From the IMG/VR virus record IMGVR_UViG_2912375805_000003: a stretch of 24,490 nucleotides of DNA. The stretch is one strand, 5' to 3'. This document shows, piece after piece, positions 1 to 24,490 of this stretch. This DNA comes from an uncultured virus (IMG/VR IMGVR_UViG_2912375805_000003). Its lineage: Duplodnaviria > Heunggongvirae > Uroviricota > Caudoviricetes. The notes beneath the pieces are model-generated. The model was not told the DNA's origin, ran no database searches, and saw nothing but the letters and a program-made list of their open reading frames with translations. The first letter of the stretch is position 1. Each line of letters opens with the position of its first letter. The position numbers and the translations under genes were made by a program.

Positions 1-120
1 CGAACCTTTTGATTTCAATGCTTCGTTAATCAGTCGTTCGCTCTCGCTTGAATAGCGTTCCATCCGCACAAGAAGTTCATCATGTCCATTTATTTTTAGC
101 TCCCAACTATTTTTAGCCAT
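1..120 (-). CDS. N-terminal part of a putative neck/tail-completion protein (HK97 gp10-like position), truncated by the window edge
   Basis: ATG at 120 overlaps the upstream stop; reads MAKNSWELKINGHDELLVRMERYSSESERLINEALKSKGS; follows the head-tail genes. Confidence 0.55.
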   Translation of the reverse strand, partial: MAKNSWELKINGHDELLVRMERYSSESERLINEALKSKGS

Positions 121-514
121 GACAATCACTCTTCAATAATCGTCTAAACGTAAATACCAATTGATCGATATAGCGATCTTGGTTCTCTAGTTTTAAATGA
201 TTGGGATCCATTCTCTGAAAACGAATCGAACGATTTTGAATCAATGAAATAATATCTAGTGAGTCTCCTGTTAAATCTTCTCTATTTTCTGAATAGAAAG
301 TTAGATATAGATTTTGACCCACGCTATATTTTGGCTCAGTGATCATTTCTATTTCTCCTGTTTCGAGAATGAAGTAATTAAAATCATCAGGTAGCTCATC
401 CTCGCCTACGGAGTCTTGAAAGAGTTTGAGGCCAAAATGCTCTTCTAAGGAAGTTTTGATAGCAGAAATTTGCTTATTTAAACGTTCTTTTTCTTTAGAA
501 TTATCAATCACCAT
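113..514 (-). CDS. Putative head-tail/tail-terminator structural protein
   Basis: 133 aa from MVIDNSKEK, overlapping the upstream stop; size and position in the head-tail cluster. Confidence 0.55.
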   Translation of the reverse strand: MVIDNSKEKERLNKQISAIKTSLEEHFGLKLFQDSVGEDELPDDFNYFILETGEIEMITEPKYSVGQNLYLTFYSENREDLTGDSLDIISLIQNRSIRFQRMDPNHLKLENQDRYIDQLVFTFRRLLKSDCHG

Positions 515-857
515 ATTCACCCACACTTTCAAGATAAAAATAGATATAAAAATTATCGTAATCGGCATAGATAACGTTGTAACGCATACTATCGATTACG
601 ATAAAATATTGATCTTTATTAAATTTCTTGGCGATTGGATGAAATGGAGTCTTTACTTTCTTAGTTAATTTCGATCCCATCGCATCCATAGCTGTTATAT
701 CACTATCTCTCATGGAAAGATTTCTAAATTTTAAAGAAGTGATTTCTGTATCTTCTACACCAATCTTTTTTCCTAGTTCATTTCTTTTGGTAGTTTGCGT
801 CAAAATCTTTAACCAACCATCGTTGAATGTTTCTTCGAGTCTACGATTATTCGCCAT
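504..857 (-). CDS. Putative head closure (head-tail adaptor) protein
   Basis: 117 aa, beta-rich pattern (TFNDGWLKI...IVIDSMRYNVIYAD), directly after the connector gene. Confidence 0.7.
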   Translation of the reverse strand: MANNRRLEETFNDGWLKILTQTTKRNELGKKIGVEDTEITSLKFRNLSMRDSDITAMDAMGSKLTKKVKTPFHPIAKKFNKDQYFIVIDSMRYNVIYADYDNFYIYFYLESVGEYGD

Positions 858-1158
858 TCACATCACCTGCAATATATTCTTGTAGCGCATAATGTTGAAT
901 GAAACCTAATAACTCACTAGCGAAATTTTGTTCAAACTCATCTAAAGCACGATTCCAGTCGTATCTACATCTTTCGATTAGCAATCCGTATTCTAAGCTT
1001 TCAGGAGAAAAAGAAAGTGTTGTACTCACTTTACTTTGAAGATAAACAGCATTTTTAGCTATCATCTTTTTAATTGACTCATCTTCTTCGTTCCAGGTAA
1101 CGTAAATATTATCCTTCACAGCTATTAGCAATTCTTCAGTCACTTGTTCAGGCGTCAT
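847..1158 (-). CDS. Putative head-tail connector (gp6/gp15-like)
   Basis: 103 aa helical protein with VKDNIYVTWNEEDESIKKMI and LLIERCRYDWN motifs; first adaptor gene after the capsid. Confidence 0.75.
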   Translation of the reverse strand: MTPEQVTEELLIAVKDNIYVTWNEEDESIKKMIAKNAVYLQSKVSTTLSFSPESLEYGLLIERCRYDWNRALDEFEQNFASELLGFIQHYALQEYIAGDVNGE

Positions 1159-2030
1159 CTAACCACCGCCTTAATTGCTTTAACATATGCGTAAGAGCAT
1201 TTTTTCTTGTTTACAAATGATAAATCTTCATCAAAAGGCGTAGAAGTCACGTATCTCCCTTTGAAAAATAAATCTTCATCGTTTGTTGTTACTCCAGCAT
1301 TGTGTAAGATTTTTACTTCTTTAACTTTTTCTATTGGATCAGTAGCAAAACAAAAGTCTAATTCCTCGTGAACTTTAGGACCAATATTGAAATACATCAT
1401 GTTCCAAAGCTGTGCCCACATCTCGGCTGTCCAGATTTGTATATTTGTTTTTTGCCCTCTAAGGTAGCGATATAGCCGATTAGAATCCAGATAAACCTTT
1501 TTCCAATAATTCGCTTTAGGACGGTTAATAACCCACTGTGCGCCTCCTGAATTAGTGTTTATAGTTTCCAAAGATTCTACTGTAACATTTACAATGTTTG
1601 CCATATCTTTTAGAATATTTTCTCCGTTTTCACAGCTTCTAATATAATCAAGACTTAGATAACTACAGCAGTCGCTACAATACCAAACATCATCTTTAGA
1701 AGGCAATTTGCGCAAATTAATTCTTTTATTGAAAATGACATCCGAATCGATATAGAAATATCGGTCGTCCTCACGCGAATGATCTTCTTCTAAATATTTC
1801 CACCATAAATATGGTTTAATCGAAGGAATATACTCTTTGTCGTCCCGCAGATCATCGTACACATGAACTTCAACACCATATTCCTTCTCAAAAAAAATAG
1901 GAATCTGATCATCGTGTCTGCTGAAAAGCAATACGATATCTTTGATTCCTAGTTTCTTCAGATTAGTTAAACAAACTTCAAGCTCCCATTTAAACCGATT
2001 GATTGCCGGCTGACAAAGAATATACTTCAT
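1155..2030 (-). CDS. GT-A fold glycosyltransferase, similar to peptide O-glycosyltransferases (GT95/GT96-like)
   Basis: DxD motif after a hydrophobic strand (YFYIDSDVIF), plus YIPSIKP, SGGAQW, WTAEMWA and C-terminal ILHNAG. RBS AGGTGA overlaps the capsid stop and ATG is at 2030; the ORF is open from 2039. Confidence 0.8.
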   Translation of the reverse strand: MKYILCQPAINRFKWELEVCLTNLKKLGIKDIVLLFSRHDDQIPIFFEKEYGVEVHVYDDLRDDKEYIPSIKPYLWWKYLEEDHSREDDRYFYIDSDVIFNKRINLRKLPSKDDVWYCSDCCSYLSLDYIRSCENGENILKDMANIVNVTVESLETINTNSGGAQWVINRPKANYWKKVYLDSNRLYRYLRGQKTNIQIWTAEMWAQLWNMMYFNIGPKVHEELDFCFATDPIEKVKEVKILHNAGVTTNDEDLFFKGRYVTSTPFDEDLSFVNKKKCSYAYVKAIKAVVR

Positions 2031-2039
2031 TCTGATCAC

Positions 2040-3200
2040 CTACGCTTGTGTTGTAGTTGTTGTGGTTGTTGGTTTTGTAGTTGTAGTAGTAGTTCCCAAA
2101 GCGCTAATATCTAATACAATGAAACTATCGTTACGTTTAGGTTGACCGTTTGCATATTGTTTAGCTAGATAAATGCGTTCGTCTTCAACAAAATGGTATT
2201 CATCTGAAGCTTCAATTTTTAGTGTAGATCCTACACCCATGAAGTAATCTGAGGCTACCCCAATAACTGCTTTTCCTTCTGGCACAGCCGTTGACTGCAA
2301 ATCTGAAACTGGTACTGGCAATACTTGTACGTATTCTCCATTAGCAGTTAGTACAGTCTTAGCTGGGAATACTTTAGACCAGTAATCAGTTGGATTCACA
2401 ATTAGGACCACATCAGAAGGATTCACATTACGATAAATCGGATCATTCACACCTTCGATATTGAATTTTGATAGTCGCGCCATCAAACCGCCCATAGTTA
2501 CAGCATCTAAAGCTGTAATAGGTTCTGCTTTTTTTTCAGCATATTCTCCGCTAGTTTGTTTGCTCATGTCACGCATCATTCCGACTGGCATATCTTTACC
2601 AGTACCATCAACAATTGCTTGTTCTAATGCAATTCTCAATGATTCTACTAAAACAGTACGGACATAACGATCTAACCATACTGGACCTAAATCAAGCATT
2701 GCCTTACATACAGGAATATAACCTGATAGCTTGAACTGCTTCATGTTAATTACATCAAAGCCATTATCTAAAACTTTTTTAACAGCTTCGCAAAGTTTAC
2801 CCCACCATGCTGGATTGACTCCACGTGACACAATCCATTCTGTTACACCAGTTGTGTTAACAAAAGTAATTTTTTGCAATAGTGGATGAGATTGTTCTAA
2901 ATCTTCAAATACACGTTCAAATACAGTAGCTGGCACTAATTCTTCGACCCCTGCAAAACCTTCGTTTTTCACTACTTCGTTATAGAATTTTGTTTCTTGT
3001 GTAGTTAATACACGCTGACCACGGTTCATTAATACTAATTGATCTTGATTTTTTGCTGTTGCTTCTTCTAAAATTTTATCCTGAATTTCCTTAGATAAGC
3101 TTACCATAGCTGCGCTAAAAGATTCTTCGTTACCATCTTTAAAAGCTTTCATCAATTGGTCGCTTGCAGCTGTTACACCTTTTAAATTTTTAACTGTCAT
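2040..3200 (-). CDS. Major capsid protein (HK97 fold) with C-terminal poly-Thr tail
   Basis: 386 aa after the ClpP protease; LVPATVFERVFEDLEQSHPLL and AIVDGTGKDMPVGM motifs; ends GTTTTTTKPTTTTTTTQA. Confidence 0.95.
   Translation of the reverse strand: MTVKNLKGVTAASDQLMKAFKDGNEESFSAAMVSLSKEIQDKILEEATAKNQDQLVLMNRGQRVLTTQETKFYNEVVKNEGFAGVEELVPATVFERVFEDLEQSHPLLQKITFVNTTGVTEWIVSRGVNPAWWGKLCEAVKKVLDNGFDVINMKQFKLSGYIPVCKAMLDLGPVWLDRYVRTVLVESLRIALEQAIVDGTGKDMPVGMMRDMSKQTSGEYAEKKAEPITALDAVTMGGLMARLSKFNIEGVNDPIYRNVNPSDVVLIVNPTDYWSKVFPAKTVLTANGEYVQVLPVPVSDLQSTAVPEGKAVIGVASDYFMGVGSTLKIEASDEYHFVEDERIYLAKQYANGQPKRNDSFIVLDISALGTTTTTTKPTTTTTTTQA
2049..2093 (-). repeat. Thr-codon repeat encoding T6-K-P-T7
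   Basis: 13 Thr codons (ACT/ACA/ACC mixed) among 15 codons just before the capsid stop. Confidence 0.95.
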
Positions 3201-3886
3201 TATTTTACATCTCCTTGTCCAAATGTTTTATTTAATGCTGCTGTAAATGCAGCAATTTTTTCTGCTCTTTTTTCTTTAACGTCATTCAAAATTTCTTCAA
3301 CGCTTTGTTCTTTTTTAGCTTCAGTACCTGAGCTATTTTCTGCATCGATAATTTCATCGACCAATCCATAACTCAAAGCTGTTTCTGCATCCATAAACGA
3401 TTCTTTTTCAAGAAGTTCTTGCAATGCTTCATCTGTGCCATTGAATCGTGTTTTATATGAAGCCTTTACCGATTTATCAATTGATTCCAGTTGGTCAGCA
3501 ATCGTACGGAAGTCATCGACATTTCCTTCTCCGTATGTGGAAGCGCGGTGAATCATCAATTGTGCATTGTTGTAGATTTTTATAGTATCGCCAGCCATTG
3601 CGATAATTGAAGCAGCACTAGCGGCTAAGCCGTTAATCACAACGTTAACTTTTGCTTTATTTGACTTAAGTAAGTTCCCAATAGCAATCCCTTGAAATAC
3701 GTCTCCACCGTTTGAATTAATTACTACTTCAATTTCTTCTTGATCACCTAGACTATCCAAAATATTTTTGATTCCCTTGTCAGTATTCCCTTCAAAGAAC
3801 CAACTAGAACCAATAAATCCCTGAATAAAAATTTGCGGTACTGCGCCTTCATTCTTTACTGCTAGAAATGTTTTCATTGTCGTCAT
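3200..3886 (-). CDS. ClpP-type prohead maturation protease
   Basis: INSNGGDV, GLAASAASII (catalytic Ser), LMIHRA (His) and EALSYGLVDEI-like motifs; RBS AGGAGGTG before ATG 3886. Confidence 0.93.
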   Translation of the reverse strand: MTTMKTFLAVKNEGAVPQIFIQGFIGSSWFFEGNTDKGIKNILDSLGDQEEIEVVINSNGGDVFQGIAIGNLLKSNKAKVNVVINGLAASAASIIAMAGDTIKIYNNAQLMIHRASTYGEGNVDDFRTIADQLESIDKSVKASYKTRFNGTDEALQELLEKESFMDAETALSYGLVDEIIDAENSSGTEAKKEQSVEEILNDVKEKRAEKIAAFTAALNKTFGQGDVK

Positions 3887-5027
3887 TCGCCTCACCTCCT
3901 TTCGATACTTGTTGATTGTTTTTAGTTATAAATATTTCATCTGCCATCGCCTTATCAGAGCGATCATTTCCAACGCGTTCTCTTCCTTCGTTGATTGTAA
4001 ATACTCCATTTCTAATGCCTACATCAATAGCGTCAACCAAATCTTTGAAGCTAGTAATCTTGATCATAGTTGTATCCACACGTACAAAATTCCCTGACAA
4101 GTATTCTTCTACTTCATAGAGACTAGCGTTAAACGCATCCTGAATAAGTTCAGCAATCGGTATGATTTCGAACATTAAAAAAGCGTCCACTTGATCCGAT
4201 AACCCACTCATGTCTCCCTTTAGTAGGTTTTTCGGAACGTGAAACGCTGCTGCTGTCATCTCAAAGATGTCGTCTATTAAGTTTTTTATATCTCTTGAAT
4301 TGCTTTGGAAGTTTCCGCTGAAATCTTCTAATGTGTACTCATTTTGTAATTGAAATACCGCACCTGCATTATCAGCTTCCATAAAAGCCTTAAATTGTGA
4401 TGTCATCATTTTATTGATTTGATCTTGTGTTGTATTGTCTTGCGGTCGGAATAAATTCCCTTTCAGTACGTATCTACGAGCGTTAGAGCGCTTGTAAACA
4501 TTCATGGCACTAGAAATGAGTTTCCCATACGCTTGATAATACGCATCGACTAGTTGCCTAATTTGTTGATCTGCGTATTTTATATAGATAACATCACTTT
4601 CTAGAAATTCTCTATCAAGGACTATGTTGTTAATTTGCACTTGAGAAAACACATCATCTTTCAATGCATATTCTGTGACATCCCAACTATCCGCAATAAA
4701 TATTTCGCTAGAATTATTAGACGGAGAAACGATCAATACTTCATTGTAGAATATTAATCTCCTGATCAGTTTTTTTCTAAATTCTGTTGCATTATTTTTC
4801 TTATTAGGAGCTACATTCAGCCTATAGTAAAGATCATTCTTTTTATTTTTTCCATCTTCATATGACTTGAATTCCGCTTTACTCATCGCATTTGCAATCA
4901 AATCAATACAAGTTTCAATCGCAAATTTTCGATACACAAAATCAACTTGCAATTTACAAAAGTATTCTTCTAAAGGAACCGTTGCTTTTTTTGTGAAGTA
5001 TCCTACCGCCTTTTGAAAAATCCCCAC
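3849..5027 (-). CDS. Portal protein (HK97 family)
   Basis: About 392 aa between TerL and the protease; CIDLIANAMS, LNVAPN, AAAFHVPKNLL and FTINEGRERVG motifs; GTG start after AGGAGGTG. Confidence 0.92.
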   Translation of the reverse strand: MGIFQKAVGYFTKKATVPLEEYFCKLQVDFVYRKFAIETCIDLIANAMSKAEFKSYEDGKNKKNDLYYRLNVAPNKKNNATEFRKKLIRRLIFYNEVLIVSPSNNSSEIFIADSWDVTEYALKDDVFSQVQINNIVLDREFLESDVIYIKYADQQIRQLVDAYYQAYGKLISSAMNVYKRSNARRYVLKGNLFRPQDNTTQDQINKMMTSQFKAFMEADNAGAVFQLQNEYTLEDFSGNFQSNSRDIKNLIDDIFEMTAAAFHVPKNLLKGDMSGLSDQVDAFLMFEIIPIAELIQDAFNASLYEVEEYLSGNFVRVDTTMIKITSFKDLVDAIDVGIRNGVFTINEGRERVGNDRSDKAMADEIFITKNNQQVSKGGEANDDNENISSSKE

Positions 5028-5046
5028 TTTCTCACCTCCTTTCAAG

Positions 5047-6741
5047 TTAGAATACTAGAGGAGTAAATCCAGTTCCTGTATTTTCTACTGAGCTATTTGT
5101 GACTGTTACAGGAGCAGAATCATAAATATCATCTAAAAAATTCAAACCATGAAGGAATGAAAAAAAGCCATCCGTTTTTCTAGTTTCAGGTTCTATTTTT
5201 TCATAGCGTATATTTCCATTAGAAATATGCTCTTCATATACATTCATGCAATACCAACGCATAATCGCATCGTCACCAAAAAATAAACGTTGATTAATAA
5301 AAAGGTCATCAACCAGATCTTTTAACATACCATGTGTAACAGATCCGCTTCGAACAATTTCCACAGTAAAACCTGCTTCTTCTAAAGCGGGCTTCAATAT
5401 TTTTGCACGGTACATATCCATAGCGATTTTTTTAATATAATATTTATTACTCATTTCAAGAAACCAACCTACAATATAATCAGCTTCTATATTTTTTCCA
5501 TGAACGATCTGTGATTTTCCTTGATCTATAGAAATATCTATAACCTCTCGTTTGATGTTTTGTAATCGAAGGGCTGATTCGTGGATAAAAGTATGTTGTG
5601 TAAAATAAACATCTTTATCGTATTTTCCTAGCAACCCAACGCTGGCAAAATCTCGTCTATCAGCAAAATCGACTGTTCCTATCACTTCATCCATTTTTTC
5701 AGGAAATTCTTTTTCTTTCGTATGCAGAACATCATCATATGAAGCAACAGCAAATCGTGTATCTTCCATAGGTCTGTTCATTCGTTTGGTCATGAACGTA
5801 AGTCTTAAACCAGCATTACGTTGCATTTGAGAGTATTCTTGAAACATTTTCCGTTTTAAATCTGCATTGTAATTAATAGTTGGACAAGCTTTTTCCCACA
5901 TGTCGGGATCATCAACTTCATTATCGTTATCCAAGCGACAAATAAATGGAAACAAACTAGAAAATTCTGCTCCATCCTTGTCAATTCCAAGTTCTCCAGA
6001 AAGAATCATTTTTGATTCTTCTATAATGTCATCAAGCGGACCACCACGAACATGACCATTAGTTGTATCATAAAATTCTCTATAATCTCGAATTTTACCA
6101 CCACCAGAAGTAGCCACATTTATCATTGAATAATCTTCATTTTCGTGAATTTCATCAAAGCGGTTTGCACCTGGTCGCTTCCCATCTTTTGTTCTAGCAT
6201 TTGCCGTGTTATAACGAAGTTTGCTGTTTGTAGCGATATTTTGAATAACTTCCTTCGTAGCTTTAAATACTTTTTTATCTAAATCAGGATGATCTTTAAT
6301 TACTTTAAATACATCATCAAAACTAGTCTTTGCTTGGCTTTCATTATTGGCATAGATATCAATATCATAATTTTTAATACCGTGTTTAGCGGTTAGTAGA
6401 AAGAAGTTGTTCCAAGAAGCAAAACCAGTTTTACCATTACCACGTCCCATTAATGAAAGATATCTATTGAACACTAGTGTTTTATCTTTTTTCCATCGAA
6501 CACCATAAATAAAACATTGTAGAAATTTTTCCCACGGAATTAATTCGAATGGAAAGTATTGTGCTGGTATATTGATTGAATCCTCTACCATCTGCTTATC
6601 GAAGTAAATATCTTCTCTAGTAAAGACTCTTTCTTCTAGATAATTTTTTAGCAATAATTGCTCTTTGCATACCTTGATAGTGCCTTCTTCTATAGCTTTG
6701 AACCAATTTTCAATATGCTTATAACTCAGGAATTGATTCAT
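5047..6741 (-). CDS. terL: Terminase large subunit
   Basis: Walker A GRGNGKT, Walker B RFDEIH, nuclease acidic residues (VDFADRRD, KTDGFF). Confidence 0.95.
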   Translation of the reverse strand: MNQFLSYKHIENWFKAIEEGTIKVCKEQLLLKNYLEERVFTREDIYFDKQMVEDSINIPAQYFPFELIPWEKFLQCFIYGVRWKKDKTLVFNRYLSLMGRGNGKTGFASWNNFFLLTAKHGIKNYDIDIYANNESQAKTSFDDVFKVIKDHPDLDKKVFKATKEVIQNIATNSKLRYNTANARTKDGKRPGANRFDEIHENEDYSMINVATSGGGKIRDYREFYDTTNGHVRGGPLDDIIEESKMILSGELGIDKDGAEFSSLFPFICRLDNDNEVDDPDMWEKACPTINYNADLKRKMFQEYSQMQRNAGLRLTFMTKRMNRPMEDTRFAVASYDDVLHTKEKEFPEKMDEVIGTVDFADRRDFASVGLLGKYDKDVYFTQHTFIHESALRLQNIKREVIDISIDQGKSQIVHGKNIEADYIVGWFLEMSNKYYIKKIAMDMYRAKILKPALEEAGFTVEIVRSGSVTHGMLKDLVDDLFINQRLFFGDDAIMRWYCMNVYEEHISNGNIRYEKIEPETRKTDGFFSFLHGLNFLDDIYDSAPVTVTNSSVENTGTGFTPLVF

Positions 6742-7033
6742 TTGCTTCACCTACCAATTCAGGAGTAATGGCAAGTTTATCCAACATCAATCCCATTTGT
6801 TTGTTGACAGAAACAAGCAACGCTACTGATTCATTCTTTTTACCATTCTCCAGTCTAATGCCGTTCTCGGATATATCTTCTTCCAGTGATATCGCCGTTT
6901 CCCATAAACTGATATAACGATCAACATTATCTAAGAATGGCTCAATATTTGTTTTCTGACTTTCCAATTGGCTTATTAAAGAGCGGCGTAATTTTTCTCT
7001 GTAGCGATTTTGAGACAATTCGTTTTTAAACAT
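6719..7033 (-). CDS. terS: Terminase small subunit (P27-like)
   Basis: 104 aa directly upstream of terL; VDRYISLW...DISENG...KKNESV...NKQMGLMLDKLAITP pattern. Confidence 0.85.
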   Translation of the reverse strand: MFKNELSQNRYREKLRRSLISQLESQKTNIEPFLDNVDRYISLWETAISLEEDISENGIRLENGKKNESVALLVSVNKQMGLMLDKLAITPELVGEANESIPEL

Positions 7034-7074
7034 TTTAGCCCTCCTTTCATGATAAAGTTCGAAAAAATCTCTTT

Positions 7075-7140
7075 TCCTGACAGCCCCCTCCGTTTCATCA
7101 CCCCCAAAAAATTTGCGATTTATTTTAAGGGGGGGTTATC
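7075..7140 (-). other. Candidate cos (cohesive end) region
   Basis: GC-rich island in the intergenic space upstream of terS (minus strand CCCCCCCTTAAAA...GGGGG...ACGGAGGGGGC); typical position for cos in HNH-TerS-TerL phages. Confidence 0.55.
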
Positions 7141-7417
7141 TCACCATCGGAATGAAAGCTTCAGCGAAGTCAATGTAATAATTAATCTCTTCAATACTAT
7201 ATCCAAAAACATTTTTTATTCTTTCGACGTTATTATCTTTATTCAACGCTTCTCTTACTTGATTCACTTTGTATTTACTACAACAGTTATCTGATAACAG
7301 ATCCCTAATACCTACATAGCGAACGTATATCAAACGTTTAATTAATCCCTGAGTATAAGATGAATACTCTTCAATCTTTTCTGTATCATACTCTCTGCCA
7401 TTATCATTGATGATCAT
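7136..7417 (-). CDS. Hypothetical protein between HNH and cos
   Basis: 93 aa from MIINDNGREY with RBS AAAGGTGG. Confidence 0.7.
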   Translation of the reverse strand: MIINDNGREYDTEKIEEYSSYTQGLIKRLIYVRYVGIRDLLSDNCCSKYKVNQVREALNKDNNVERIKNVFGYSIEEINYYIDFAEAFIPMVR

Positions 7418-7421
7418 GCAC

Positions 7422-7766
7422 TTACCACCTTTCACTTGCATCGAAGTTAGCAAAGCTTTCTATCTTCTTCTCTTGTTTATCTAATGCTGTAAGATATCTG
7501 CCATGAACTTCATTATGATGTTCAACACATAAACAAATAAGATTATCTAAATCTAAAGCTAAGTCAGGTCTATCCTTGACTTCCTTTATATGATGAACGT
7601 TCTCTACTCTATGATACTTACCTAGTCTTCTACACTCTTGGCATTCATAGTGATCTCGTTTCATCGCTTTCTCTCTAAGCCTGCGCCATTTAGGAGACTG
7701 ATAGAACTTAACCAAACGATCTTCTCTTGTCAACTGTAATAGCCATCTATAGAATTCCTCGGTCAT
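7422..7766 (-). CDS. Packaging-associated HNH endonuclease (HK97 gp74-like)
   Basis: FYQSPKWRRLR, RDHYECQEC, VHHIKE and NLICLCVEHHNEVH motifs; upstream of terS. Confidence 0.92.
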   Translation of the reverse strand: MTEEFYRWLLQLTREDRLVKFYQSPKWRRLREKAMKRDHYECQECRRLGKYHRVENVHHIKEVKDRPDLALDLDNLICLCVEHHNEVHGRYLTALDKQEKKIESFANFDASERW

Positions 7767-7791
7767 GTTCCGTCTCCTTTCGCAATCTTAT

Positions 7792-7959
7792 TTAATGCTT
7801 AGCTATTCTTTTGCCATACAATGGAATAACTTCATTGTTTTCCTTTCGTTTATATGTATCGCTCTTTATTGGTCTTCTATACTCATATACTTTTTCGCCA
7901 TTACCTTTATGAACAGTGATTACTTCATACTTCTGTTCTAAGTATTGTGGTCTATACAT
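7792..7959 (-). CDS. Small hypothetical protein (55 aa), not in the ORF track
   Basis: Strong RBS AAAGGAGG, then MYRPQYLEQKYEVITVHKGNGEKVYEYRRPIKSDTYKRKENNEVIPLYGKRIAKH*. Confidence 0.7.
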   Translation of the reverse strand: MYRPQYLEQKYEVITVHKGNGEKVYEYRRPIKSDTYKRKENNEVIPLYGKRIAKH

Positions 7960-7979
7960 TGTTGTTTCCTCCTTTGTGC

Positions 7980-8010
7980 AAAAATAAAAAGACCACTCAA
8001 AGAGTGATCT
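7980..8010 (-). terminator. Intrinsic terminator downstream of the tRNA-like RNAs
   Basis: Minus strand AGATCACTC-TTT-GAGTGGTCT followed by TTTTATTTTT. Confidence 0.75.
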
Positions 8011-8100
8011 AATATGTAATAGTAACTTGCACGATGCACAAAACGCGTACGAAATTGCGCACCCCTATATTTTTAAACCGCCGATGCCTCGGTTGCTTAA

Positions 8101-11862: not shown

Positions 11863-12167
11863 TATCTCTCCTCCACATACCTAAACTGTCGTCCTTTTGA
11901 ATCAATCCATAAGCTCCTAGCTCTATCCCAGATAATGTTTTTGCTTAATCCAGTAATTTCAGATAACTGTTCAGCAGTACCTGTTACTAAAATTCGGTCA
12001 TCATGCCAGATTGCAATTTTTCTCGGCGTTCTCCGTTTGGGCTTTTCAGTCCACATTGATTTACCGAGCTTTTGGACTTCTGCAACTATTTCTTTGTCTT
12101 CTTGCCAAGATTCTGACTTGGTTAATTCAGCAATTCTTTTCATTGCTGCTTTCTTATCCACGCTCAT
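11862..12167 (-). CDS. Putative small DNA-binding protein, paralog A
   Basis: IAIWHDDRILVTGTAEQLSEITGLSKNII (NUMOD1/HTH-like); homologous to 12322-12624. Confidence 0.7.
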   Translation of the reverse strand: MSVDKKAAMKRIAELTKSESWQEDKEIVAEVQKLGKSMWTEKPKRRTPRKIAIWHDDRILVTGTAEQLSEITGLSKNIIWDRARSLWIDSKGRQFRYVEER

Positions 12168-12325
12168 TCCTCCAATCGATGGATTTCCCTTCTTAAATTC
12201 TCTATGTGCAAATCGATTGCCTTTCTCGCCGTTTCATTGACCATCACTGCCTTTGTTCGTTCCAGATCGTCAATCTCACGCTGAAGGCTTCGAATACGCA
12301 TTTGAATCACTTCTTCTGTTGTCAT
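12164..12325 (-). CDS. Small coiled-coil protein (53 aa), not in the ORF track
   Basis: RBS GGAGG, MTTEEVIQMRIRSLQREIDDLERTKAVMVNETARKAIDLHIENLRREIHRLEE*; ATGA overlaps on both sides. Confidence 0.75.
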   Translation of the reverse strand: MTTEEVIQMRIRSLQREIDDLERTKAVMVNETARKAIDLHIENLRREIHRLEE

Positions 12326-12624
12326 GATGATTCCTCCACGTATCTAAACGTTCTCTTCTTAGCGTCTGTGTAGCCACACCTTGCTCTTTTCCTCACGATT
12401 TTCTCGTGCAAGCCTGTGAGACTTGCTAACTGTTCAGCTGTCCCTATCACTAGAAGTTTGTCACCGTGCCAAATTGCGATTTTTCGTGGTCTTGGCTTGT
12501 TGCTCTTGTCTGCCCACATCGCTCTTCCAAGCCTCATCACTTCTGAAGCAGCTTCTTTGTCATTTTGCCAATCTTCTGAATAAGTCAATTCGATAATTCG
12601 CTGCATTGCCGCTTTCTTATCCAT
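12322..12624 (-). CDS. Putative small DNA-binding protein, paralog B
   Basis: IAIWHGDKLLVIGTAEQLASLTGLHEKIV; homologous to 11862-12167. Confidence 0.7.
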   Translation of the reverse strand: MDKKAAMQRIIELTYSEDWQNDKEAASEVMRLGRAMWADKSNKPRPRKIAIWHGDKLLVIGTAEQLASLTGLHEKIVRKRARCGYTDAKKRTFRYVEESS

Positions 12625-13818: not shown

Positions 13819-14505
13819 TTACCCTCCAATATTTAACTTTTTGATTGTTTTCTGGTTTAATTTGATCCCTTTGATTTGATATTTATTTTTGAAATTAATC
13901 ACACCTATTTTGTGCTTCTCTGTGTGATGGATTCTGCAGAGTGCTGCAAATGTGTACTCTGCATGATCAACTTCTTTGCGCTTTCGTCTTCCTAGCGCTT
14001 TGTCAAAGTGATCGATGTCAGCTCCTGTTTTGCCACAGATGCAGCAGACTCTTTTTGTGATGCATTTGTAGAAGTAATATTCTTGATTCGCAGGTAAAAT
14101 CTCATAGCCTTCTTTGAAAGGAATATGATGTTCAAAGATGAAATCTAAGATGATATTTGCTAAGACATTGGCATCACTCACAGTTGTATTCGATTCGTCT
14201 TTCAGGCTTATTTTGCGCCCTGTGACACCTTCAAAACGAAAGTAGAAGAATTCCTTCCAGAAGTCCGTTGGCATGCCTGTATCGATAAAAATATCGCCTA
14301 TCAGCGCATAGATGAAGTTTCGTTGCTGTACGGTGAAACGTCTAGGATCAATAAAACGAATTTCAATGACTCGATCACCATCGTAGCCGTCATACATCGT
14401 CTTTAGTCGATCAATGTTCACTTCCTCATTGATGGTTGCGCTTATGTCTTTTCCTTTGAACTTTTTCAGAACCGCTGAATATGAATCGATTAATGGTTTA
14501 AACAC
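13819..14505 (-). CDS. Putative HNHc nuclease (DUF968-like)
   Basis: C-terminal CCICGK...DIDH...ALCRIHHTEKHKIG motif; lies between the recombinase and rep. Confidence 0.8.
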   Translation of the reverse strand: MFKPLIDSYSAVLKKFKGKDISATINEEVNIDRLKTMYDGYDGDRVIEIRFIDPRRFTVQQRNFIYALIGDIFIDTGMPTDFWKEFFYFRFEGVTGRKISLKDESNTTVSDANVLANIILDFIFEHHIPFKEGYEILPANQEYYFYKCITKRVCCICGKTGADIDHFDKALGRRKRKEVDHAEYTFAALCRIHHTEKHKIGVINFKNKYQIKGIKLNQKTIKKLNIGG

Positions 14506-15502
14506 TCATATCACTTCTTATCTAATTCTTTTCTCTTAGCTGCTATTGCTCGCTCCATCAAGGCACATTGCTCATAGCTTAACTGTTCAATAGTTTCAAC
14601 GTTATCAGCTAAGAGCCCTAATTTATCTGTCTGCTCATTAACATATTCGATTAAGGTTTTGGTCATATCTTTACCCATCTGCTCATTGAAAGCTTCTAGA
14701 ATCGTCTCTAGCATGTTTAATTTCTTTGTATCGATTCTAGGTGGTGTTGGAATATCTTCCCCTTGAANCACAGATACAGCAGACTCTTTTTGTGATGCAT
14801 TTGTAGAAGTAATATTCTTGATTCGCTGGTAAAATCTCATAGCCTTCTTTGAAAGGAATATGATGTTCAAAGATAAAATCTAAGATGATATTTGCTAAGA
14901 TATTGGCATCACTCACAGTCGTATTCGATTCATCTTTGAGGCTTATTTCGCGCCCTGTGACACCTTCGAAACGGAAGTAAAAGAATTCCTTCCAGAAGTC
15001 CGTTGGCATGCCTGTATCGATGAAAATATCGCCTATGAGTGCATAGATGAAGTTTCGTTGCTGTACTGTGAAACGTCTAGGATCAATAAAACGAATTTCA
15101 ATAACTCGATCACCATCGTAGCCGTCATACATCGTCTTTAGTCGATCAATGTTCACTTCCTCATTGATGGTTGCGCTTATGTCTTTTCCTTTGAACTTTT
15201 TCAGAACCGCTGAATATGAATCGATTAATGGTTTAAACACTCATATCACTTCTTATCTAATTCTTTTCTCTTAGCTGCTATTGCTCGCTCCATCAAGGCA
15301 CATTGCTCATAGCTTAACTGTTCAATAGTTTCAACGTTATCAGCTAAGAGCCCTAATTTATCTGTCTGCTCATTAACATATTCGATTAAGGTTTTGGTCA
15401 TATCTTTACCCATCTGCTCATTGAAAGCTTCTAGAATCGTCTCTAGCATGTTTAATTTCTTTGTATCGATTCTAGGTGGTGTTGGAATATCTTCCCCTTG
15501 AA
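14034..15502. repeat. 734-bp tandem duplication joined by N (14034-14767 / 14769-15502); probable assembly artefact
   Basis: Near-identical copies with scattered SNPs and a single N at 14768; produces a truncated HNHc copy and a Sak C-terminal fragment. Confidence 0.9.
14769..15240 (-). pseudogene. Truncated second allele of the HNHc nuclease (ends at N)
   Basis: Identical to 13819-14505 except K/E and V/I changes, up to CCIC then N. Confidence 0.7.
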
Positions 15503-23179: not shown

Positions 23180-23350
23180 AATAAACACCTCTGATTGGAT
23201 GATCTAATACACATCCAATTATACCATTAAAACGACAAATAGCACATCCTTGCGCCGGCAAGCAAAAAGGATGTGCAAAAAATAATAAAACCCAAACAAT
23301 GGGCTTCTTTATAGTTCCTATTGTATCAGAGAAAGAGAGCTGATTCAATT

Positions 23351-24490
23351 ATGGCAAGATTAGTCAAACGTGGAAATAGTTGGCAATACGAAATTTCATA
23401 CAAAAAAGATGACGGAAAATACACGAAGATAAGAAAATCAGGATTTAAGACAAAAGGAGAAGCAAAAGATGCCGCCAACGAATTAGAATATAACTTGAAC
23501 AAAGGCCTTAAAGGGGATCGCAAAAATCTATTATTATCAGATTACTTTGAGGATTGGATGCAACTTTATAAAGAAGGAACAGTATCTCCTATCACTTATA
23601 GAAAATACGAAGATACGTTAATGAACATAAAGAAATATATGCCAGCGGTATTGATTTCTGATTTAGATAGAGTGGGATATCAACGCTTTTTAAATAAGTA
23701 TGCTAAAGACCATGTAAAATCTACCGTTATTAAGTTTAATAACCATATTAGAGCGTCGTTGAAAGATGCCGTAGAAGAAGGATTAATTCCGTTTGATCCA
23801 ACTAGAAAAGCAGTAATCAAAGGAAAAGATTCATTGAAGCCAAAAGAAGATAAATATTTAGATTATGATCAATTTAAATCTTTAATGAAACTCGTAGAAG
23901 AAAACCTTTCTGCGCAGTACTCTTCTCCTATGCTCGTGTTAGTTGCTGGTGCCACTGGAATGCGATTTGCTGAACTTCTAGGATTAACATGGGAAGATAT
24001 CGATTTCGAAGATCAAATCATCACTATTAATAAAACATGGAATTATAAATTAAATGAATGGGGAAAAACAAAAAACGAAACTTCAAATAGGAAAATTTCC
24101 ATTGATAAACATACGATTGATCTCTTAAAAAAGTTTAAAATCAATCAAAAAGAATTATTCGAGAATTTTGAAATCAAAAACCCTCATAATTTTGTTTTTT
24201 TCAACTTAAAAAATGGATTAGTTTCATCAAACGCCGTCAGCAAATATTTGCGCAAAAAATTAAAAGAATTAGGGATTGAAAAGCAATTTACTTTGCATGG
24301 ACTAAGGCATACACATGCATCTATTTTACTTTATCAAGGAGTAAATATACTTAGCGTATCGAAACGTTTAGGACATAGCAGTTTAGAAACTACAATGTCT
24401 ACTTATCTTCATATTGTTCGAGAGCTTGAAGATCAGGATAAAGAAAAAATCAATACTGTGTTCGATAGTTTATATAAAAATGATAACTAG
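23351..24490 (+). CDS. int: Tyrosine recombinase (phage integrase)
   Basis: Arm-binding KSGFKTKGEA, TGMRFAELLGLTW (R), HGLRHTHAS (HxxR) and RLGHSSLETTMSTYLH (H, Y). Confidence 0.97.
   Translation: MARLVKRGNSWQYEISYKKDDGKYTKIRKSGFKTKGEAKDAANELEYNLNKGLKGDRKNLLLSDYFEDWMQLYKEGTVSPITYRKYEDTLMNIKKYMPAVLISDLDRVGYQRFLNKYAKDHVKSTVIKFNNHIRASLKDAVEEGLIPFDPTRKAVIKGKDSLKPKEDKYLDYDQFKSLMKLVEENLSAQYSSPMLVLVAGATGMRFAELLGLTWEDIDFEDQIITINKTWNYKLNEWGKTKNETSNRKISIDKHTIDLLKKFKINQKELFENFEIKNPHNFVFFNLKNGLVSSNAVSKYLRKKLKELGIEKQFTLHGLRHTHASILLYQGVNILSVSKRLGHSSLETTMSTYLHIVRELEDQDKEKINTVFDSLYKNDN

What the first reader, a model, noticed from the sequence alone, without database searches (positions are those of the whole stretch)
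1155..3200. Candidate capsid O-glycosylation system: peptide glycosyltransferase paired with a poly-Thr capsid tail
Seen: a ~291-aa non-structural enzyme gene lies between the major capsid and head-tail connector genes, coupled to both (its RBS overlaps the capsid stop). The capsid ends in GTTTTTTKPTTTTTTTQA. Seen motifs, in order: RFKWE, YIPSIKP, YIDSDVIF, SGGAQW, WTAEMWA, LHNAG. Knowledge, recalled rather than searched: this order matches the plant/algal peptide O-glycosyltransferases, namely GT96 peptidyl-serine galactosyltransferase and GT95 hydroxyproline arabinosyltransferase (YFDWQ, YPAINKP, ILDADM, GG, WxxEMY). These enzymes sugar-modify hydroxy amino acids in low-complexity peptides. 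Virion protein glycosylation is known in some mycobacteriophages. Inference: the enzyme glycosylates the 13 Thr residues on each capsid subunit, giving a mucin-like glycan coat that could affect antibody recognition, mucus interaction, stability or capsid-sensing defences. I know of no description of this in Firmicutes phages.
Basis: partly seen in the sequence, partly recalled or inferred. Interest (0 to 1): 0.93.

Follow-up and report, generated by a model that had tools for sequence, protein, structure and literature searches.

The report
Phage sugar-transferase paired with poly-threonine tags
A temperate Enterococcus phage encodes an unannotated sugar-adding enzyme right after a capsid gene that ends in a threonine-only tag, and across many phages this enzyme occurs with such tags, so these phages probably sugar-coat their particles, though no sugar has been measured.

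Summary
The capsid gene (2040-3200, minus strand) ends GTTTTTTKPTTTTTTTQA. A 291-aa gene (1155-2030) follows, translationally coupled on both sides, and all six quoted motifs are present.

The enzyme has no Pfam family. It belongs to PHROG 4417, labelled "unknown function". It folds with high confidence (pLDDT 96) as a GT-A glycosyltransferase closest to GT8-type enzymes, with a conserved DxD motif and His.

- In 51 loci from different species, 49 carry at least one structural protein ending in an S/T run. In 46 of them such a protein ends within 120 nt upstream of the enzyme gene.
- The tags sit on at least 11 PHROG families: capsids, tail tubes and connectors.
- Of 69 homologous tail-tube genes not next to the enzyme, none is tagged.
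- Capsid and tail-tube tags within one phage usually share the same last three residues.

The plant GT95 (HPAT) link is only sub-threshold. Glycosylation itself is inferred, not shown.

The closest precedent is mycobacteriophage virion glycosylation, which uses other enzymes. My ten literature searches found no description for Firmicutes phages. This scan has noted the same enzyme-tag pairing before on other DNA, mostly large aquatic phages. This window adds lab-tractable hosts.

The parts
2040..3200 (-). Major capsid protein gene (386 aa, HK97-type), the proposed substrate
   Evidence: PF05065 E 1e-16 and phrog_10 E 3e-64; ORF
2043..2096 (-). Codons for the C-terminal tag GTTTTTTKPTTTTTTTQA (13 Thr), the proposed O-glycosylation sites
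   Evidence: Translation. These are the only S/T runs of 5 or more in the window's 42 ORFs. Equivalent tags occur in 49 of 51 loci that carry the enzyme.
2036..2041 (-). AGGTGA ribosome-binding hexamer for the enzyme gene. It overlaps the capsid stop codon (2040-2042) and lies 5 nt before the ATG at 2030.
   Evidence: Read directly from the sequence
1155..2030 (-). 291-aa soluble GT-A glycosyltransferase of PHROG 4417 (no Pfam family). DxD at D95/D97 (YIDSDVIF) and conserved H243 (LHNAG).
   Evidence: phrog_4417 E 2.4e-156. AF2 pLDDT 96.2. GT-A/GT8-like fold matches. D95, D97 and H243 invariant or nearly so in alignments A1-A4. No hydrophobic segment, max Kyte-Doolittle 19-residue mean 1.11.
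1155..1158 (-). ATGA overlap of the enzyme's stop codon with the start codon of the next gene (translational coupling)
   Evidence: ORF coordinates and sequence
847..1158 (-). phrog_749 protein in the connector position. It is untagged here (ends ...GDVNGE), but its homologues carry a poly-Thr tag in 9 of the 82 strictly tagged ORFs from relatives.
   Evidence: phrog_749 E 1.1e-27; tagged homologues

Best explanation
The gene at 1155-2030 encodes a soluble, metal-dependent GT-A glycosyltransferase. It is made late in infection, together with the structural proteins. In the cytoplasm it probably uses a host nucleotide-sugar to O-glycosylate the threonine hydroxyls of a short C-terminal tag: roughly six to ten Thr, sometimes repeated, followed by two to four small residues.

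In this phage the tag is on the major capsid protein. In near-identical relatives it is also on the tail-tube protein, whose gene lies just beyond the window's left end. The result would be a glycan layer over head and tail.

Shown here: the gene arrangement and coupling, the GT-A fold with conserved DxD and His, and the tight association of enzyme and tags across unrelated structural protein families.

Inferred: that the tag is the acceptor, that Thr is O-linked, that the donor comes from the host, and that the tag is exposed on the virion surface (recalled from HK97-type capsids and siphophage tail tubes). The sugar and the benefit to the phage are unknown.
For: Enzyme:
- High-confidence GT-A model.
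- GT8-like matches at Z 14-15 stand above other GT-A folds at Z 9-12.
- Several top matches glycosylate proteins, by their PDB titles plus recall: glycogenin, the Skp1 galactosyltransferase, GlyE, UGGT.
- DxD and His are conserved over relatives down to about 30% identity.
- There is no membrane segment.

Coupling: the ribosome-binding site overlaps the capsid stop, and an ATGA overlap joins the enzyme to the next gene.

Association, over 51 loci from different species:
- 49 of 51 have at least one ORF with 5 or more consecutive S/T in its last 25 residues.
- 103 of 1063 ORFs are tagged. 102 are on the enzyme's strand and 101 lie within 4 kb of it.
- In 46 of 51 loci a tagged ORF ends within 120 nt upstream of the enzyme's start.
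- Under a stricter criterion, 82 ORFs in 45 loci qualify. By PHROG they are 33 major head, 37 major tail, 9 phrog_749, 1 adaptor and 2 with no hit.
- They span at least 11 PHROG families, so shared descent of one tagged gene cannot explain the pattern.

Control:
- I examined the 70 best phrog_88 tail-tube matches in 401 Lactobacillales genomes. The one next to the enzyme is tagged. The other 69 are not; their longest S/T run is 3.
- Only 5 of those 401 genomes hold the enzyme at all.
- In enzyme-bearing loci, 31 of 34 phrog_88-like tail tubes are tagged.

Reverse direction: 4 of 80 randomly returned IMG/VR loci with an (ACN)8 DNA pattern carry a family member beside T-rich proteins. The baseline is about 551 hits in 2.9 million contigs.

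The same pairing appears in isolated phages:
- phiFL2B, on capsid and tail tube.
- Lactococcus phage 1706, where orf10 and orf13 both end ...THHD and the enzyme is orf14.
- nattely, Bacchae, bIL285 and PLE3.

Shared tag ends: in 22 of 35 loci the capsid and tail-tube tags have identical last three residues. Shuffling pairs between loci gives a mean of 3.4 and a maximum of 9 in 2000 shuffles.

Fusions: 63 of the 150 best family representatives exceed 400 aa. Their extra parts include second glycosyltransferase domains (Glyco_transf_7C in 9, GT2 in 4, GT25 in 2, GT6 in 1). One member is fused to a PqqD domain, which I recall as a peptide-binding domain.
Against: - No biochemical or mass-spectrometric evidence exists for any member that I could find, so glycosylation is inferred from context only.
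- No Pfam glycosyltransferase model matches the window protein.
- The donor sugar is unknown, and no sugar-nucleotide genes lie in the window.
- Two of 51 loci lack a clear tag. L134 ends only ...TTPATTAG. L136 is a 1-kb contig with no upstream DNA.
- Three of 34 tail tubes in enzyme-bearing loci are untagged.
- C-terminal poly-Thr tags also occur without this enzyme. Three of the 4 such contigs in the random sample (L143/L144, L171, L178) have no family member in the whole record (records 74%, 52% and 7% complete). No Pfam GT appeared among the 37 of 49 ORFs I scanned.
- Related genomes are not independent, so raw counts overstate significance.
- The control inspected only the 70 best-scoring rows.
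Confidence: 0.78

Rival explanations
1. The tags are real, but they are modified by a host enzyme or work unglycosylated as hydrophilic spacers or sticky ends. The phage enzyme glycosylates some other virion or phage protein.
For: C-terminal poly-Thr tags exist on structural-module proteins in three contigs with no family member detected. No direct evidence links enzyme and tag.
Against: The enzyme gene directly follows a tagged gene in 46 of 51 loci. Tags are absent from 69 of 69 homologous tail tubes that are not next to the enzyme. Tags move among at least 11 protein families but stay with the enzyme.
Confidence: 0.08
2. The enzyme modifies a host surface polymer (teichoic acid, cell-wall polysaccharide) for lysogenic conversion or superinfection exclusion, as some prophage glycosyltransferases do (recalled).
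For: The window is a temperate phage with an integrase at 23321-24490. The fold alone does not identify the acceptor.
Against: The gene sits inside the late head-tail operon and is translationally coupled on both sides, not in the lysogeny module. Homologues occur in large phages such as the Herelleviridae member Bacchae and the 85-92 kb Enterococcus and Staphylococcus phages, which I recall as strictly lytic. There is no membrane segment. This reading does not explain the tag association.
Confidence: 0.06
3. The enzyme is a glycogenin-like self-glucosylating primer or glycan polymerase that makes a free or enzyme-bound glycan, unrelated to the tags.
For: Glycogenin is the top structural match (Z 15.2).
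Against: Sequence identity to glycogenin is 11-12%. No Glyco_transf_8 hit appeared even at E<=10. This reading gives no account of the adjacency to tagged genes.
Confidence: 0.03
4. The enzyme glycosylates phage DNA bases.
For: Phage-encoded glycosyltransferases that modify DNA are well known (recalled).
Against: No base-hypermodification genes were recognised in the window. The gene lies in the structural operon. The tag association is unexplained.
Confidence: 0.02

Closest known systems
Mycobacteriophage virion glycosylation (Che8, Corndog, Myrna; Freeman et al. 2023, Cell Host Microbe). The paper itself is not held. I saw only citing passages in PMC12363180, PMC12691614 and PMC12894461.
   Same: Phage-encoded glycosyltransferases modify capsid and tail-tube subunits. 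From recall, the sites there are also C-terminal S/T-rich extensions.
   Different: The enzymes differ. None of the 77 phage records matched by tblastn at E<=1e-3 is a mycobacteriophage, and none appears in the top 50 BFVD fold matches. Here a single enzyme gene sits directly behind its presumed substrate gene, and the tag is nearly pure poly-Thr. The hosts are mainly Firmicutes.
GT8-type retaining GT-A glycosyltransferases (glycogenin, LgtC, WbbM C-terminal domain, GlyE of the pneumococcal serine-rich-repeat adhesin pathway)
   Same: They are the best structural matches: Z 14.4-15.2, rmsd 3.2-3.8 A over 204-238 residues. They share the DxD motif and a conserved C-terminal His.
   Different: No sequence-profile match to Glyco_transf_8 at E<=10 in 43 members. 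Identity is 9-12%. The retaining mechanism is recalled for GT8 and untested here.
Plant hydroxyproline O-arabinosyltransferases (GT95, Pfam PF23452 HPAT) and peptidyl-serine galactosyltransferase (GT96)
   Same: Both act on hydroxy amino acids in low-complexity peptides (recalled). PF23452 is the most frequent Pfam hit among distant relatives (4 of 84). One hit is collinear: residues 9-242 against model positions 9-230 of 307. A neighbouring ESM-Atlas cluster has PF23452 on 10% of its members.
   Different: All hits are below Pfam's cut-off (best 21.9 against 23.9 bits). The window protein has no hit. The enzyme is soluble and phage-encoded, not Golgi-resident. The presumed acceptor is Thr, not Hyp or Ser. 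GT96 was not testable.
Chlorovirus PBCV-1 A64R, the glycosyltransferase involved in glycosylating its major capsid protein
   Same: A virus-encoded GT-A enzyme acting on the virus's own capsid. It is a structural match at Z 11.4.
   Different: It is a weaker match than the GT8-like group. It comes from a eukaryotic virus. From recall, its glycan chemistry and attachment sites are different.

Membership tests
GT-A nucleotide-sugar glycosyltransferase superfamily | Single Rossmann-like GT-A fold | tested here: met
   AF2 pLDDT 96.2, pTM 0.92. 417 PDB matches at E<=0.001, led by GT-A enzymes. VIA-align Z up to 15.2 over the whole model.
GT-A nucleotide-sugar glycosyltransferase superfamily | DxD metal/nucleotide-sugar binding motif | tested here: met
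   D95 and D97 (YIDSDVIF) are invariant in A1 (43 sequences) and invariant or nearly invariant in A2-A4. Their placement in the active site was not checked in 3D.
GT8 (Pfam Glyco_transf_8) | Sequence-profile match to the family model | tested here: not met
   No Glyco_transf_8 hit for the window protein at E<=1, for 43 relatives at E<=10 or for 84 at E<=1
GT8 (Pfam Glyco_transf_8) | Closest fold neighbours are GT8 members | tested here: met
   Glycogenin 15.2, LgtC 14.9, WbbM 14.9, GlyE 14.4 and a GT8 protein of Anaerococcus 13.9, against 9-12 for other GT-A families
GT95 HPAT (Pfam PF23452) | Profile match at or above Pfam's gathering score | tested here: inconclusive
   The window protein has no hit. 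4 of 84 distant relatives hit at E<=1. The best, P0220, scores E 1.3e-4 and 21.9 bits against a 23.9-bit cut-off, and the match is collinear. The ESM Atlas neighbour cluster carries HPAT on 10% of members.
GT96 peptidyl-serine galactosyltransferase | Sequence or fold match to a family member | not testable with these tools
   No hit named as GT96 appeared in the Pfam scans or fold searches run here. Whether those libraries hold a GT96 model or structure was not checked.
Phage virion glycosylation system (mycobacteriophage type) | Phage-encoded glycosyltransferase plus S/T-rich C-terminal extensions on capsid and tail-tube subunits | tested here: met
   Capsid tag in the window. Capsid and tail-tube tags in the 97.6%-identical relative L088. 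33 head and 37 tail proteins are tagged across loci.
Phage virion glycosylation system (mycobacteriophage type) | Glycan demonstrated on virion proteins | not testable with these tools
   Needs glycostain or mass spectrometry. No such data were found in ten literature searches.
Phage virion glycosylation system (mycobacteriophage type) | Homology of the enzyme to the Che8/Corndog/Myrna glycosyltransferases | tested here: not met
   0 of 77 matching phage records is a mycobacteriophage at tblastn E<=1e-3. None is in the BFVD top 50.

The most novel reading that the evidence does not exclude
A portable glyco-tag system. A short C-terminal poly-Thr tag (six to ten Thr plus a phage-specific two-to-four-residue end) would be enough to direct any virion protein to a dedicated HPAT/GT8-like enzyme. 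Phages of Firmicutes, and beyond them, could then add or remove a mucin-like coat on capsid, connector and tail tube simply by gaining or losing tags. The matching tag ends within each phage would be the enzyme's recognition signal. Family members fused to second transferases, PqqD or radical-SAM domains would extend the same chemistry to longer glycans and to peptide natural products.
Probability: 0.45. Interest if true: 0.85.

Novelty: new variant of a known kind. Interest (0 to 1): 0.74.

Why it matters
It would give a function to PHROG 4417. That family is labelled "unknown function" and has at least 868 clusters at 50% identity and 77 matching phage records.

It would extend virion glycosylation from mycobacteriophages to phages of Enterococcus, Staphylococcus, Lactococcus, lactobacilli, Listeria, Clostridium and many Bacillaceae. 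These include phage types considered for therapy and phages that trouble dairy fermentations.

A glycan coat could change antibody recognition, stability, adhesion and sensing by bacterial defences that recognise capsid or tail proteins. All of these effects are untested.

The window's relatives offer models in which the idea can be tested directly:
- bIL285 in L. lactis IL1403
- PLE3 in L. casei BL23
- Lactococcus phage 1706
- the phiFL phages
- Enterococcus phage 4995_1

A minimal tag-plus-enzyme pair could also serve as a protein glyco-engineering tool.

Tried and rejected
- Sequence search of PDB with the protein and with profile A1 gave only chance hits, with best E values of 0.64 and 0.13.
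- Pfam on the window protein and 43 relatives gave nothing meaningful.
- Sampling genomes by taxonomy for the family was too sparse for a co-occurrence test: 1 of 401 in the phylum sample and 5 of 401 in the order sample. I used the genome-contig scan instead.
- The IMG/VR scan with A1 returned mostly near-identical E. faecium prophages, so I did not use it for counts.
- A scan with one tail-tube protein found only 9 close relatives and was not analysed further.
- A 150-sequence Pfam scan exceeded the size limit, so I split it in two.
Nothing was folded, and it bears on nothing.
- The Freeman et al. 2023 paper is not held.
- PMC9430571 and PMC7698478 mention glycosylation only of teichoic acid or flavonoids.
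- PMC12894461 stained ten other phages and saw no glycoproteins. Whether any of them carries this enzyme was not checked.
- Searching earlier findings by sequence gave nothing.
- Rejected readings: DNA glycosylation, host-surface modification and glycogenin-like self-priming. Reasons are under the rival explanations.
Full report
**What is in the window**

The window is most of a temperate siphophage, with nearly all genes on the minus strand. I recognised:
- an integrase (23321-24490);
- regulators and anti-repressors;
- replication genes;
- small and large terminase subunits (6719-7033, 5047-6750);
- portal (3849-5045);
- ClpP-type head protease (3200-3895);
- major capsid protein (2040-3200);
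- the gene in question (1155-2030);
- a phrog_749 protein (847-1158);
- a head-tail adaptor (504-857).

The gene in question is 100% identical over 291 residues to a hypothetical protein of Enterococcus phage 4995_1, whose host is E. faecium.

- The capsid ends GTTTTTTKPTTTTTTTQA, and all six quoted motifs are present in order.
- An AGGTGA hexamer overlapping the capsid stop codon precedes the ATG at 2030 by 5 nt.
- The gene's TGA stop overlaps the next gene's ATG as ATGA.
- The two Thr runs are the only S/T runs of 5 or more in the window's 42 ORFs.

**What the protein is**

No named sequence family covers it.
- It has no Pfam family at E<=1 and no PDB relative by sequence.
- It is a full-length member of PHROG 4417, 'unknown function' (E 2.4e-156).
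- The family is large: 904 hits in the 90% identity clusters and 868 representatives at 50% identity.
- It matches 77 of 50,697 phage records.
- Those records include large Lactobacillus phages of about 131-145 kb (Bacchae is filed under Herelleviridae), 85-92 kb Enterococcus and Staphylococcus phages, Lactococcus phages 1706 and bIL285, and Clostridium phage phiCTP1.

The fold is GT-A.
- With a 43-sequence alignment, AlphaFold2 gives pLDDT 96.2 and pTM 0.92.
- Foldseek against PDB is led by the WbbM GT8 domain, UGGT, glycogenin and the GT6 enzymes.
- An all-against-representatives structural search gives, as Z scores:

| Match | Z |
|---|---|
| glycogenin | 15.2 |
| LgtC | 14.9 |
| WbbM | 14.9 |
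| Skp1 galactosyltransferase | 14.7 |
| GlyE | 14.4 |
| UGGT | 14.3 |
| other GT-A families | 9-12 |
| PBCV-1 capsid-glycosylating A64R | 11.4 |

- D95 and D97 (the DxD in YIDSDVIF) and H243 (LHNAG) stay conserved down to about 30% identity.
- There is no hydrophobic segment.
- I conclude it is a soluble GT-A glycosyltransferase with a GT8-like fold but outside the GT8 sequence family.

- Among 84 distant single-domain relatives, PF23452 (HPAT, GT95) is the most frequent Pfam hit, but in only 4 of them.
- The best hit is collinear over three quarters of the model, yet sub-threshold: E 1.3e-4, 21.9 bits against a 23.9-bit cut-off.
- A neighbouring ESM-Atlas cluster carries HPAT on 10% of its members.
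- This is a lead for remote homology, not membership.

**The co-occurrence test**

Loci that carry the enzyme:
- A scan of one genome per species returned 51 loci with 10 kb flanks. They come from Enterococcus, lactobacilli, Lactococcus, Listeria, Staphylococcus, many halophilic Bacillaceae, Clostridium, Trichococcus and one Saccharimonadales MAG.
- The uniform criterion was 5 or more consecutive S/T within the last 25 residues. By it, 49 of 51 loci have at least one tagged ORF.
- The two exceptions are L134, whose upstream protein ends only ...TTPATTAG, and L136, a 1-kb contig.
- 103 of 1063 ORFs are tagged. 102 are on the enzyme's strand and 101 lie within 4 kb of it.
- In 46 of 51 loci a tagged ORF ends within 120 nt upstream of the enzyme's start.
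- A stricter criterion picks 82 ORFs in 45 loci.
- By PHROG these are 33 major head proteins (phrog_10, phrog_840, the protease-capsid fusion phrog_3270), 37 major tail or tube proteins (phrog_88, 117, 238, 2645, 14018, 6686), 9 phrog_749, 1 adaptor, and 2 without a hit.
- The tag therefore sits on at least 11 different protein families but stays with the enzyme.

Control loci:
- phrog_88 tail-tube genes were sought in 401 Lactobacillales genomes. 96 genomes have a match, but only 5 hold the enzyme.
- I read the 70 best-scoring matches and did not examine the lower rows.
- The single match next to the enzyme is tagged. The other 69 are not; their longest S/T run is 3.
- In enzyme-bearing loci, 31 of 34 phrog_88-like tail tubes are tagged. 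The 3 exceptions are loci where a small T-repeat protein precedes the enzyme instead.

Reverse direction:
- 80 loci were returned from IMG/VR for an eight-codon ACN pattern.
- 4 of the 80 carry a distant family member beside T-rich proteins. The baseline is about 551 hits in 2.9 million contigs.

**Isolated phages show the same pairing**

- phiFL2B: the head protein and the true tail-tube protein (gp48) both end in long Thr tags, and the enzyme (gp49) follows gp48.
- Lactococcus phage 1706: capsid/protease orf10 and 'major structural protein' orf13 both end ...THHD, and orf14 is the enzyme.
- nattely, bIL285 and PLE3 have tagged tail tubes, and PLE3 also a tagged capsid.
- Bacchae has three small T-rich proteins around the enzyme.

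For this window, the relative L088 is collinear at 97.6% identity over window positions 2-8019. Its tail-tube protein ends ...SSTTTTTTTQA, the same ending as the capsid. By the offset in L088, that gene would begin about 300 nt beyond the window's left edge.

**A shared tag end**

In 35 loci with both a tagged capsid and a tagged tail tube, the last three residues are identical in 22. Shuffling pairs between loci gives a mean of 3.4 and a maximum of 9 in 2000 shuffles. This fits a common recognition signal or repeated exchange between the two tag-coding segments. Which of the two applies is not shown.

**Wider family**

- 63 of the 150 best representatives are longer than 400 aa.
- Their extra parts include second glycosyltransferase domains: Glyco_transf_7C in 9, GT2 in 4, GT25 in 2 and GT6 in 1 of 63. 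This fits initiation followed by elongation of a glycan.
- Single members are fused to PqqD or to radical-SAM/SPASM domains. I recall these as typical of peptide-modifying enzymes.
- Most extra parts have no Pfam hit.

**Against the reading**

- Nothing here shows a sugar on any protein.
- Poly-Thr C-terminal tags on structural-module proteins also occur without this enzyme. Three of 4 such contigs in the random sample have no family member in the whole, incomplete record. They also have no Pfam GT among the 37 of 49 ORFs I scanned.
- Relatives share ancestry, so the counts are not independent trials. The spread over many protein families is the better argument.

**Comparison with what is known**

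- The closest system is mycobacteriophage virion glycosylation (Freeman et al. 2023). I could see it only through citing passages, because the paper is not held.
- According to those passages, the phages glycosylate capsid and tail-tube proteins with their own glycosyltransferases, which shields virions from antibody binding.
- The enzyme here is not one of those. The tag is nearly pure poly-Thr, and a single enzyme gene sits directly behind its presumed substrate.
- Ten literature searches found no description of this enzyme family or of virion glycosylation in Firmicutes phages. The library lacks most subscription journals, so this is not proof of absence.
- This scan's own notebook holds 27 earlier notes, from at least 26 other genomes, of the same enzyme-tag pairing; the eight it showed are mostly large aquatic phages. 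They agree with my reading but are not independent evidence.

**Verdict**

It is a new variant of a known kind of system. What this window adds is a compact, experimentally tractable form in phages of well-studied Gram-positive hosts.

Noticed in passing
L001:5345-6909 (Enterococcus phage phiFL2B, GQ478085.1): The GenBank record labels the enzyme homologue gp49 'major tail protein'. The 219-aa Thr-tagged gene before it (gp48) is labelled 'conserved hypothetical' and looks like the real tail tube. This seems to be an off-by-one annotation.
   Followed up: partly
L088-L132 (35 loci); for example L088:8831-9991 and L088:12327-12932: Capsid and tail-tube tags within one phage usually end in the same three residues (TQA, SHA, TSA, TGA, EAQ, TKG and others). 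This holds in 22 of 35 loci, against a mean of 3.4 when pairs are shuffled.
   Followed up: yes
L089:8186-8554, L090:9660-10001, L091:8871-9230, L092:9454-9822, L342:3620-3997 (PLE3), L338:8649-8996 (Bacchae): Small proteins of 113-125 aa, made largely of Thr-rich repeats, lie directly upstream of the enzyme gene. Those scanned (L089-L092) hit phrog_14018/341 'major tail protein'. They may be separate glycosylated decoration proteins or tail-tube extensions.
   Followed up: partly
P0164 and P0182 (family representatives): One family member is fused to a PqqD domain and another to radical-SAM plus SPASM domains. This hints that the family is also used in peptide natural-product pathways.
   Followed up: no
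L114:4949-6028, L115:8589-9668, L119:10001-11029: Variants of the enzyme in Trichococcus and Bacillaceae (L114, L115, L119) carry an extra C-terminal stretch of about 50-70 aa. Similar long forms P0115 and P0120 showed no Pfam hit. Its role is unknown.
   Followed up: no
L133:9132-10873; organism list: The enzyme, preceded by a protein ending ...ASTTTTT, occurs on a Saccharimonadales MAG contig. Phage records for Arcanobacterium and Chryseobacterium hosts also match, so the pairing is not confined to Firmicutes.
   Followed up: partly
L143:9997-10557 and 12028-12612; L171:9761-10048; L178:161-709: Structural-module proteins end in 9-15 Thr in IMG/VR contigs where no member of this enzyme family and no Pfam glycosyltransferase was found. 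The records are incomplete.
   Followed up: partly
window 13819-15240 (-): Two adjacent ORFs (13819-14505 and 14737-15240) both match phrog_398, and a third ORF (14511-14870) overlaps them. This may be a duplication or a split gene in the replication module.
   Followed up: no
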